Positions 2,688-2,719 of a DNA stretch of 64,000 nucleotides are shown piece after piece; the stretch's first letter is position 1, and each line of letters starts with the position of its first letter. Below the pieces are notes generated by a model, which saw only the letters and a program-made list of their open reading frames with translations, had not been told where the DNA came from and did not search any database. The stretch is from Escherichia coli (lineage in GTDB: Bacteria > Pseudomonadota > Gammaproteobacteria > Enterobacterales > Enterobacteriaceae). The translations under genes and the position numbers were made by a program. Location: the NCBI RefSeq assembly GCF_030384885.1, contig NZ_CP128613.1; one strand, given 5' to 3'.

Positions 2688-2719
2688 GGTGCGCATAATG
2701 TCAACGCGTTATGTTGAAA
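2688..2719. other. dif-like attP (Xer recombination site) at junction between tandem prophage copies
   Basis: GGTGCGCATAA-TGTCAACGCG-TTATGTTGAAA: XerC arm identical to dif, XerD-arm-like half-site 9/11 match, longer central region than dif. Confidence 0.7.

What the first reader, a model, noticed from the sequence alone, without database searches (positions are those of the whole stretch)
2688..2719. attP architecture: XerC arm identical to dif, divergent and longer central region, near-consensus XerD-like arm
The copy junction reads GGTGCGCATAA-TGTCAACGCG-TTATGTTGAAA, against dif GGTGCGCATAA-TGTATA-TTATGTTAAAT at 11263-11290. Identity runs through the XerC arm and the first three central nucleotides and then breaks, which fits a XerC-side crossover. 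The attP central region is not the canonical 6 bp, which bears on how this phage is integrated and whether it can be excised.
Basis: seen in the sequence. Interest (0 to 1): 0.55.

Follow-up and report, generated by a model that had tools for sequence, protein, structure and literature searches.

The report
Folded-hairpin attachment site of dif-integrated phage
The odd dif-like site is real, but it is only one half of a two-part attachment site that probably folds into a hairpin on the single-stranded DNA of a filamentous phage, the trick already known from the cholera-toxin phage, so it is an ordinary member of a known kind.

Summary
Window 2688-2719 reads GGTGCGCATAA-TGTCAACGCG-TTATGTTGAAA. 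It lies at the junction of two identical tandem copies (period 8575 bp) of a filamentous prophage. A perfect E. coli dif sits at 11263-11290, and identity between the two sites stops after XerC arm + TGT.

An inverted dif-like site (attP2, minus strand 2780-2750, GGTTCGCACAA-TGACG-TTATGCTAAAG) lies 34 nt away across a GC-rich stem. On the + strand (the inferred viral strand) the two sites pair into a 93-nt hairpin (-33.5 kcal/mol, z = -7.95). The XerC and XerD arms become duplex, and five of the ten "central" nucleotides bulge out. This matches the CTXφ attP(+) layout (12/7 nt there, 10/5 here).

Thirteen variants keep the fold, with 8 compensatory pairs.

The phage belongs to the UPΦ group, not CUS-1/YpfΦ. 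It shares this att cassette (96-97% identity) and genes II/V with YpfΦ/CUS-1-like phages, for which reviews already propose CTX-like integration.

The likely mechanism is a XerC-only strand exchange between folded ssDNA and dif. Integration would then be irreversible by Xer, and new phage would be produced by rolling-circle replication across the tandem copies. None of this has been tested experimentally for this phage group.

Verdict: new member of a known kind; modest interest.

The parts
1..2701 (+). 3' part of prophage copy 1 (gI tail, gIV, two small ORFs, XerC arm + TGT). The window begins inside this copy.
   Evidence: 100% identical to 8576-11276
2688..2698 (+). attP1 XerC-binding arm GGTGCGCATAA, identical to the dif XerC arm
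2699..2708 (+). attP1 central region TGTCAACGCG (10 nt). TGT is shared with dif and invariant in 13/13 variants. TCAAC (2701-2705) is bulged in the fold. The final GCG pairs with the attP2 strand.
2709..2719 (+). attP1 XerD-like arm TTATGTTGAAA (9/11 match to dif)
2720..2753 (+). Apical stem-loop: 11-bp GC-rich stem (AGGCCGCTGCG / CGCAGCGGCCT) with a 12-nt loop. It closes the hairpin on the XerD side and could also act as a bidirectional terminator between convergent genes.
   Evidence: Fold. Six compensatory pairs in relatives.
2750..2780 (-). attP2: an inverted dif-like site, GGTTCGCACAA (2780-2770) TGACG (2769-2765) TTATGCTAAAG (2764-2754). It supplies the bottom strand of the folded site.
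   Evidence: (one of only three dif-like sites in 64 kb)
2786..3715 (-). Cargo gene, 309 aa, STM4504/CBY_0614 family (named 'abortive infection protein-like C-terminal domain' in UniRef)
3799..4492 (-). Two small reverse-strand genes (140 aa membrane-like protein; 60 aa candidate regulator)
4662..6043 (+). Replication module: gII (350 aa) and gV-like DNA-binding protein (105 aa). It is shared at 86% / 94% amino-acid identity with YpfΦ/CUS-1-like phages.
6046..10495 (+). Morphogenesis module: g7-like protein, major coat protein, gIII attachment protein (with GGGES repeats), gVI (DUF5455), gI/Zot-like protein, gIV secretin. It is of IKe/I2-2 (Lineavirus) type.
10565..11224 (+). Two small ORFs of unknown function (102 aa and 77 aa) next to attR
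11263..11290 (+). attR: an intact chromosomal dif (phage-derived XerC arm, then host central region and XerD arm)

Best explanation
Window 2688-2719 is attP1, the strand that XerC cleaves in a CTXφ-type folded attachment site carried by a UPΦ-group filamentous prophage.

Proposed mechanism. In the circular single-stranded (+) genome, attP1 pairs with the inverted attP2 (2754-2780 on the + strand) across an 11-bp apical stem. This makes a 93-nt hairpin with duplex XerC and XerD arms. The bottom strand has a 5-nt spacer, and the top strand has 10 nt, five of which are bulged. Host XerC/XerD bind this hairpin together with chromosomal dif. XerC cuts both top strands at the boundary between arm and central region. 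The TGT shared by attP1 and dif, and the TG shared by dif and attP2, stabilise the strand swap. The resulting pseudo-Holliday junction is resolved by replication.

Products. The left junction is host XerC arm + phage central region (attL, identical to the copy junction). The right junction is an intact dif, which keeps chromosome-dimer resolution working and can accept further copies, giving the tandem array seen here.

Consequences. In duplex prophage DNA, attP1 (10-bp spacer) and attP2 (5-bp spacer) are probably not Xer substrates. Xer would then not excise the prophage, and new ssDNA genomes would be produced by gII-driven rolling-circle replication from one copy into the next, which recreates the whole attP region found at the copy junction.

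Shown here: the sequences, the junctions, the empty site, the fold, the covariation, and the homology of the cassette. Inferred: which strand is packaged, XerC-only catalysis, irreversibility, and production by rolling-circle replication.
For: The junction and dif sequences and the point where identity breaks.

The inverted partner site, one of only three dif-like sites in 64 kb (0.1 expected).

The ssDNA fold: -33.5 kcal/mol, z = -7.95, 0 of 200 shuffles as good.

The same 35-pair structure in 9 and then 13 distinct variants. 98.7% of cells are paired. Eight pairs have compensatory double changes, against 1.5 ± 1.0 in shuffles (0/500) and at most 2 in slid controls. Two of these pairs lie inside the recombination site: the last central nucleotide (G-C to A-T in Rosenbergiella) and XerD-arm position 7 (T-A to A-T in L090).

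TGT is invariant, while the bulged part of the top-strand central region is the most variable stretch of the cassette.

Central lengths (top/bottom) are 9-11 / 5-6 in the family, against 12 / 7 in CTXφ, whose attP1 and attP2 sequences are given in PMC3089051.

In Xenorhabdus, where the host dif central region is TCTATA, the host strand pairs better with the attP2-derived bottom strand (WC, WC, wobble) than with duplex attP1 (WC, mismatch, WC).

The crossover is mapped to the XerC cleavage point by L079 and L008. Empty site and left junction.

All morphogenesis genes are on the + strand, which is T-rich (32.8% T), as expected of an inovirus viral strand.

The att cassette is 96-97% identical to that of YpfΦ/CUS-1-like phages, although gII/gV are only 80% identical at nucleotide level and the structural genes are unrelated. 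Reviews already list YpfΦ and CUS-1Φ as CTX-type and describe inverted XerC/XerD site pairs in them (PMC4266046; PMC4246890; PMC3089051).

Relatives of pI in Vibrio and Photobacterium have a single site with a 7-8 nt spacer, no partner and no strong hairpin. The pairing is therefore a specific feature of this lineage, not a by-product.

The tandem arrangement fits production by rolling-circle replication.
Against: There is no experimental test for this phage group. Even for YpfΦ the scheme is called 'proposed' in the review.

Six of the eight compensatory pairs are in the apical stem, which could be conserved as a transcription terminator. The arms pair automatically whenever both sites are dif-like, so arm pairing alone is weak evidence.

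Sequence diversity in the cassette is low (mean column identity 89%), and several variants are closely related.

The minus strand folds almost as well (-31.3 kcal/mol).

A 5-nt bottom-strand spacer is one shorter than any Xer site I know to be functional (this rests on my own knowledge).

The YpfΦ review reports that incoming phage integrates between resident copies, at the imperfect site. The simple model does not predict this.

The Xenorhabdus argument rests on a single case.
Confidence: 0.75

Rival explanations
1. VGJφ-type integration, which is the reading implied by the first reader. The double-stranded replicative form uses 2688-2719 alone as attP. XerC exchanges one pair of strands with dif, replication finishes the job, and the reaction is reversible because attL and dif can recombine again.
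For: The XerC arm is identical to dif, the centre shares TGT with dif, and the XerD-like arm matches 9/11. Prophage orientation and junctions are equally compatible with this model. Relatives of the same pI clade in Vibrio and Photobacterium do have single sites with 7-8 nt spacers.
Against: The spacer is 9-11 bp in every variant. The VGJ attP is a single 29-bp site, and the 12-bp attP1 of CTXφ is stated to be unusable as duplex DNA. The model leaves unexplained the conserved inverted attP2, the compensatory changes inside the site, and the 96-97% conservation of the whole cassette across phages with unrelated structural genes. In Xenorhabdus the duplex model gives a mismatch at the second exchanged base.
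Confidence: 0.12
2. The inverted repeat is mainly a bidirectional transcription terminator between the convergent 77-aa ORF and the cargo gene. On this view attP2 is a decaying relic of an earlier integration or duplication with no role in recombination.
For: The stem is GC-rich, flanked by an A-run upstream and a T-rich run downstream, and sits between convergent genes. Most of the compensatory changes are in that stem.
Against: attP2 keeps both arms at 9/11 identity to dif in all variants, including Xenorhabdus, where the apical stem sequence is completely different. Two compensatory pairs lie outside the terminator-like stem. A terminator role does not exclude a recombination role.
Confidence: 0.08
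3. The copy junction has no function of its own. It is simply the attL-type scar, duplicated when the prophage was amplified by homologous recombination or replication slippage.
For: The copy junction is identical to the attL of L001. The two copies are 100% identical over the part visible in the window. The YpfΦ review invokes homologous recombination for changes in copy number.
Against: This describes how the array may have grown, not what the site is. The same cassette is present in single-copy prophages (UM146 in L002; L151) and in every relative, and it is under strong conservation.
Confidence: 0.05

Closest known systems
CTXφ attP(+) of Vibrio cholerae (Val et al. 2005; reviewed in PMC3089051 and PMC4246890)
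   Same: Two inverted dif-like sites on a filamentous phage that encodes no integrase. The cleaved-strand site has an over-long central region that shares only TGT with dif (12 nt in CTXφ, 10 nt here). The partner site has a short central region (7 nt versus 5 nt), so the top strand carries the same 5-nt excess. There is a G·T wobble at XerD-arm position 8. The loop closes the XerD side. attR is an intact dif. The prophages are in tandem. The layout is the same: reverse-strand regulators and cargo beside attL, then replication, morphogenesis and accessory genes running towards dif.
   Different: The hairpin is about 93 nt with a 34-nt spacer between the sites, against about 150 nt and about 90 nt in CTXφ. 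The central region folds as a simple 5-nt bulge rather than a larger fork. The host is E. coli and the phage backbone is unrelated. The phage carries its own secretin (gIV), which CTXφ lacks (from my own knowledge). There is no experimental proof here.
YpfΦ (Yersinia pestis) and CUS-1Φ (E. coli O18:K1:H7)
   Same: The loci I take to represent this group carry essentially the same att cassette (96-97% identity; in L159 it is identical to the UM146-type cassette). They also share gII and gV (86% and 94% amino-acid identity), dif integration and tandem arrays. Reviews describe an inverted XerC/XerD site pair and an imperfect dif at the copy junction for YpfΦ.
   Different: The coat, gIII, gVI and gI genes show no detectable similarity, and gIV is only about 27% identical. 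The window's phage is therefore a different virus that shares only the integration and replication module. The group identity of L154-L172 is inferred from the pattern described in PMC7307601 and from the 8700-nt unit length. I held no named YpfΦ record.
UPΦ phages (Shapiro and Putonti 2020, PMC7307601)
   Same: The window's prophage is 98.6% identical over 88% of its length to the prophage of E. coli ECONIH2, which that paper uses as its worked example of a UPΦ tandem triple. Its nearest non-integrating relatives are IKe and I2-2. It has GGGES repeats in g3p, three reverse ORFs next to the site, two novel ORFs after gIV, and a tandem array at dif.
   Different: [quoted passage not shown] It does not mention attP2, a hairpin or the central region. 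The cargo gene here (the 309-aa STM4504-family protein) differs from that of other members.
VGJφ-type IMEX
   Same: dif integration by host XerCD, with XerC-side homology and a XerC-first exchange.
   Different: VGJφ has a single 29-bp duplex attP with a 7-bp centre and integrates reversibly. Here the centre is 10 bp and there is a conserved inverted partner site.

Membership tests
CTXφ-type IMEX (folded ssDNA attP) | Filamentous phage without its own integrase, inserted at the chromosomal dif | tested here: met
   PHROG hits to gII, coat protein, gIII and gIV. No recombinase is annotated in the near-identical L001 prophage. dif lies at the right junction and the empty site is known.
CTXφ-type IMEX (folded ssDNA attP) | Two dif-like sites in inverted orientation (attP1 and attP2) close together on the phage genome | tested here: met
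   2688-2719 (+) and 2780-2750 (-), 34 nt apart. They are two of only three dif-like sites in 64 kb, with 0.1 expected by chance.
CTXφ-type IMEX (folded ssDNA attP) | The viral strand folds so that the two sites form duplex XerC and XerD arms around a partly unpaired centre | tested here: met
   Computed fold of -33.5 kcal/mol, z = -7.95. The consensus structure is kept in 13 variants with 8 compensatory pairs. That the + strand is the packaged one is inferred from gene orientation and T-richness.
CTXφ-type IMEX (folded ssDNA attP) | The attP1 central region is too long, and the attP2 central region incompatible, for duplex Xer recombination | tested here: inconclusive
   The lengths fit (10 nt and 5 nt here, 9-11 and 5-6 in the family). 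Whether the duplex sites are really inactive cannot be tested with these tools.
CTXφ-type IMEX (folded ssDNA attP) | Homology with dif limited to the bases next to the XerC arm; crossover at the XerC cleavage point; dif regenerated at attR | tested here: met
   Identity ends after TGT. L079 and L008 bracket the crossover. attR is a perfect dif.
CTXφ-type IMEX (folded ssDNA attP) | ssDNA is the substrate; only XerC catalysis is needed; integration is irreversible; phage is produced by rolling-circle replication from tandem copies | not testable with these tools
   Only the tandem arrangement is observable.
VGJφ-type IMEX | A single duplex attP of about 29 bp with a 7-bp central region and no partner site | tested here: not met
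   The centre is 10 bp and there is a conserved inverted partner. By contrast, the Vibrio and Photobacterium relatives do fit this type.
TLCφ-type IMEX | attP lacks a proper XerD arm; homology is on the XerD side; exchange is XerD-first | tested here: not met
   The XerD-like arm matches 9/11, and homology and crossover are on the XerC side.
UPΦ phage group | Core gene set and order of UPΦ901/ECONIH2, structural genes of Lineavirus type, tandem integration at dif | tested here: met
   98.6% identity over 88% of the length to the ECONIH2 prophage, which PMC7307601 names as UPΦ. pI is 63-66% identical to contigs of 6883 and 6744 nt; I take these lengths to be those of IKe and I2-2 from my own knowledge. 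IKe gIV gives a nucleotide hit. GGGES repeats are present.
YpfΦ/CUS-1 phage lineage | Near-identity across regulation, replication and assembly genes | tested here: not met
   Only gII, gV and the att cassette are shared. The structural genes are unrelated.

The most novel reading that the evidence does not exclude
The att cassette may be a portable integration module with a geometry distinct from that of CTXφ. It folds as a clean 5-6-nt top-strand bulge over a bottom-strand spacer of only 5 nt, one shorter than canonical dif. It has two invariant G·T wobbles in the XerD arm, which become A·C mismatches on the minus strand and so could restrict activity to the viral strand. It is kept at 96-97% identity while moving between inoviruses with unrelated morphogenesis genes. 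If so, XerCD tolerates a bulged substrate with a sub-canonical spacer, and the imperfect duplex site at copy junctions might itself be a secondary target, as hinted by the reported YpfΦ integration between resident copies.
Probability: 0.2. Interest if true: 0.45.

Novelty: new member of a known kind. Interest (0 to 1): 0.27.

Why it matters
The finding settles how to read this locus. The "non-canonical 10-bp central region" is not a puzzle about XerCD spacing. It is the signature of the cleaved half of a folded single-strand attachment site.

This predicts that the prophage cannot be removed by Xer recombination. It predicts that virion production needs the tandem arrangement. It also predicts that the intact dif at the right end stays available for further elements.

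It extends the CTXφ integration strategy, by sequence evidence, to the UPΦ phages. These are common in clinical E. coli, Salmonella, Klebsiella and Citrobacter, and the paper describing them did not analyse the site.

It also shows that the att cassette travels with the gII/gV replication module between otherwise unrelated filamentous phages.

None of this is surprising to a specialist in Xer recombination.

Tried and rejected
1. I first labelled the phage CUS-1/YpfΦ from annotation and from the literature on dif-integrated E. coli inoviruses. I rejected this after PMC7307601 and a gene-by-gene tblastn table showed it belongs to the UPΦ group and shares only gII, gV and the att cassette with YpfΦ-like phages.

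2. Megablast against the phage collection found only short IKe and PEar gIV hits and no close record.

3. The original CUS-1 paper (PMC135385) is not held, so CUS-1 sequences could not be checked against a named source.

The terminator idea therefore remains untested.

5. The exact-sequence look-up of the cargo proteins failed at first because a TTG start is translated as L. It succeeded once the first residue was set to M. No Yersinia entries were seen, so this cargo is probably not YPO2271/2272.

6. One regular expression for att pairs missed the 9- and 10-nt variants. The earlier scans were used instead.

7. The Izhakiella contig L005 (8271 nt, high coverage) looked like a circular replicative form. 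Its 7-nt terminal overlap is just the shared att core, so it is not evidence for a circle.

8. The ~81%-identity gII hits in E. coli (L150, L151) were candidates for CUS-1 but proved to be a divergent UPΦ sub-lineage with the same cassette.

9. The VGJ-type and TLC-type readings were considered and rejected on spacer length, the presence of the partner site and the side of homology.

Full report
**1. The observation**

The sequence at 2688-2719 is GGTGCGCATAA TGTCAACGCG TTATGTTGAAA. The canonical E. coli dif 28-mer lies at 11263-11290. It is the only match in the window even when 3 mismatches are allowed, and none is expected by chance.

Window 1-2701 is 100% identical to 8576-11276, and the first difference is at 2702. 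The window therefore opens inside one copy of an 8575-bp element that is followed by a second complete copy. 2688-2719 is the copy junction.

Allowing up to 4 mismatches to dif and any spacer of 4-14 nt, the window holds just three sites, whereas shuffled sequence gives 0.1.

**2. What the element is**

The repeat unit encodes a complete filamentous phage on the + strand: gII, a gV-like DNA-binding protein, a g7-like peptide, the major coat protein, gIII, gVI, a Zot-like gI and a gIV secretin. Three reverse-strand genes lie next to the left end, and two small ORFs lie next to dif.

The host is E. coli. The gadBC region at 40-44 kb matches 5394 genomes at 80% coverage or more.

Strain 2013C-4282 has the unoccupied site. 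Its order is hipA, dif, then a right flank that is 100% identical to the window over 400 nt. In strain Res13 (L001) a 99.6%-identical prophage, also present in two tandem copies, has a left junction next to hipA that reads the same hybrid site as the copy junction. The window's own left junction lies outside the window.

**3. The missed half**

A second dif-like site lies on the minus strand at 2780-2750: GGTTCGCACAA TGACG TTATGCTAAAG. It is 34 nt from the first site, across an 11-bp GC-rich stem with a 12-nt loop.

As single-stranded DNA the + strand 2680-2790 folds into one long hairpin of -33.5 kcal/mol. The z-score is -7.95, and none of 200 shuffles folds as well. In this fold the two XerC arms pair and the two XerD arms pair. 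The first two and last three nucleotides of the 10-nt centre pair with the 5-nt centre of the partner site, and TCAAC (2701-2705) bulges out.

The spacer between the two recombinase-binding duplexes is therefore 5 nt on the continuous strand, close to the canonical 6. This removes the apparent problem of a 10-bp spacer.

This is the architecture of the CTXφ attachment site. CTXφ attP1 is AGTGCGTATTA TGTGGCGCGGCA TTATGTTGAGG (12-nt centre, TGT shared with dif1). CTXφ attP2 is AATGCGTATTA TACGCCA TTATGTTACGG (7-nt centre). The two are inverted and fold on the (+) ssDNA (PMC3089051; PMC4246890). Both systems carry a 5-nt excess on the cleaved strand and a G·T wobble at XerD-arm position 8.

**4. 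Comparative test**

Scans of species-representative genomes and of viral contigs with the gI and gII proteins returned many relatives. Thirteen distinct versions of the cassette were aligned. RNAalifold recovers the same 35-pair structure in both alignments.

On the first alignment (9 variants):
- 98.7% of cells are paired.
- 8 pairs carry compensatory double changes, against 1.5 ± 1.0 in column shuffles (0 of 500 reach the observed value) and at most 2 when partners are slid by 1-3 columns.

Six of these eight pairs are in the apical stem. In Xenorhabdus that stem is entirely different in sequence but still pairs. The other two lie inside the recombination site:
- the last central nucleotide (G-C to A-T in Rosenbergiella);
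- XerD-arm position 7 (T-A to A-T in L090).

TGT is invariant in all 13 variants. The bulged part of the top-strand centre is the most variable stretch of the whole cassette. Top/bottom central lengths are 9-11 / 5-6 throughout.

Two relatives fix the crossover point. In L079 the attL XerC arm starts AGTG (host) and the attR arm starts GGTG (phage). In Xenorhabdus the attL centre is TGT... (phage) and the attR centre is TCT... (host). The exchange therefore occurred between XerC-arm position 2 and central position 2, an interval that includes the arm/centre boundary where XerC cleaves.

In Xenorhabdus the host's exchanged strand would also pair better with the attP2-derived bottom strand than with duplex attP1. 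This is a single case.

Relatives of the same gI clade in Vibrio and Photobacterium have a single site with a 7-8 nt spacer on the opposite strand. They have no credible partner site and no strong hairpin: -7 to -17 kcal/mol, against -33.5 here. They look VGJ-type, which shows that the paired layout is a specific feature of the enterobacterial lineage.

**5. Which phage, and what was already known**

I first assumed the phage was CUS-1/YpfΦ. That was wrong.

PMC7307601 defines the UPΦ phages and names the tandem triple in E. coli ECONIH2 as its example. ECONIH2 matches the window's element at 98.6% identity over 88% of its length.

A gene-by-gene comparison separates two groups. The window, UM146, Res13 and ECONIH2 share all genes. 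A second set of loci shares only gII (about 86%) and gV (about 94%) with the window: L154-L159, L161-L167 and L170-L172, including the 8700-nt unit L162. In that set the coat, gIII, gVI and gI genes show no detectable similarity, and gIV is about 27% identical. This is exactly the UPΦ-versus-YpfΦ pattern that the paper reports. The second group occurs in about 90 E. coli genomes.

The att cassette, however, is common to both groups. It is 96-97% identical, and in L159 it is identical to the UM146-type cassette. The neighbouring gII/gV region is only 80% identical at nucleotide level, and most of the rest does not align at all.

Published statements on YpfΦ and CUS-1Φ therefore apply here by direct sequence homology:
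- their listing as CTX-type relatives (PMC4246890);
- "features for direct ssDNA integration" (PMC3089051).

The UPΦ paper itself contains none of the words attP, hairpin, inverted or central region. I found no later paper on UPΦ that analyses the site. For YpfΦ the scheme is described as proposed, not demonstrated.

**6. Mechanism and confidence**

The best-supported mechanism (confidence about 0.75) is as follows:
- The + strand hairpin is bound by host XerC/XerD together with dif.
- XerC cuts both top strands after GGTGCGCATAA.
- The 5'-TGT ends swap.
- Replication resolves the pseudo-Holliday junction.

The observed junctions are exactly the predicted products. The duplex prophage then holds attP1 (10-bp spacer) and attP2 (5-bp spacer), which by analogy with CTXφ are not Xer substrates. 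Xer-mediated excision is therefore not expected. New genomes would come from rolling-circle replication across the tandem copies, which reproduces the junction cassette.

The packaged strand is inferred from gene orientation and from T-richness (32.8% T on the + strand).

Rival readings are a VGJ-like duplex attP (0.12), a terminator with a relic attP2 (0.08) and a functionless amplification scar (0.05).

Weaknesses of the preferred model:
- Cassette diversity is low.
- Most of the covariation is in a stem that could be a terminator.
- The minus strand folds almost as well (-31.3 kcal/mol).
- A 5-nt bottom-strand spacer is unusual.
- The reported YpfΦ integration between resident copies is not predicted by the simple model.

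**7. Verdict**

The feature is a new member of a known kind: a CTXφ-type folded attachment site, homologous to that of YpfΦ/CUS-1, in a UPΦ-group phage whose published description did not analyse the site. Interest is modest.

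Noticed in passing
window 13111-13770, inside minus-strand ORF 12992-14425: About eleven 60-bp tandem repeats (61-75% identity to the reference copy) lie inside a 477-aa ORF just right of dif. The matching gene in E. coli 24A16CRGN010 is annotated as a NEL-type E3 ubiquitin ligase domain protein, so these are probably 20-residue leucine-rich repeats of an effector-like protein.
   Followed up: no
window 2786-3715 (-): The cargo slot beside attL holds a 309-aa STM4504/CBY_0614-family protein, named 'abortive infection protein-like C-terminal domain' in UniRef and seen on 920 contigs. It gives a weak PADLOC hit to candidate system PDC-S32 (E = 4.5e-10). Relatives carry different genes in the same slot: a zinc-binding ECs_2282-family protein, a Doc toxin, a PD-(D/E)XK nuclease, a 369-aa hypothetical protein. 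The slot may be a hot spot for defence-like morons.
   Followed up: partly
window 10862-10977 and 11237-11262: Two short non-coding or inter-ORF stretches are 84-94% identical to YpfΦ/CUS-1-like phages, although the surrounding genes are unrelated. They are candidate cis-acting elements (packaging signal or replication origin) that travel with the att cassette.
   Followed up: no
window 7136-7255: 15-bp repeats encode GGGES units in the gIII attachment protein. The UPΦ paper reports that the number of these repeats varies between strains.
   Followed up: no
L006 (Rosenbergiella gaditana) 140-171: A further hybrid dif-like site (GGTGCGCATAA TGTATGACG CTATGTCACAA) lies 2.6 kb to the left of the prophage attL. 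This suggests a second small Xer-dependent element stacked at the same dif. Its centre resembles the attP1 centre of L155 (TGTATGACT).
   Followed up: no
L033, L043-L046, L048, L051, L053, L056 (Vibrio and Photobacterium): Phages with a gI 44-60% identical to the window's use a single dif-like site with a 7-8 nt centre, on the strand opposite to the phage genes, with no inverted partner. Within one gI clade, both duplex (VGJ-like) and folded (CTX-like) strategies occur.
   Followed up: partly
L003, L004, L007: Contigs carrying a gI 98-100% identical to this E. coli phage's sit in assemblies labelled Bacteroides, Candidatus Nanosynbacter and Paenibacillus. L004 also includes E. coli dif flanks. 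These are probably mis-binned or contaminating enterobacterial DNA.
   Followed up: no
E. coli EC5502, NZ_CP092647.1 (hits H20 and H65): This genome shows 15-16 separate matching places for the phage, far above the median of 1-2. This suggests a very large tandem array or dispersed copies.
   Followed up: no
window 11291-14500: The sequence immediately right of dif (a 146-aa ORF, an MbcA/ParS/Xre antitoxin gene and the repeat-containing ORF) is covered at 80% or more in only 2 of 5426 complete E. coli genomes. dif therefore borders a variable island in this lineage.
   Followed up: no
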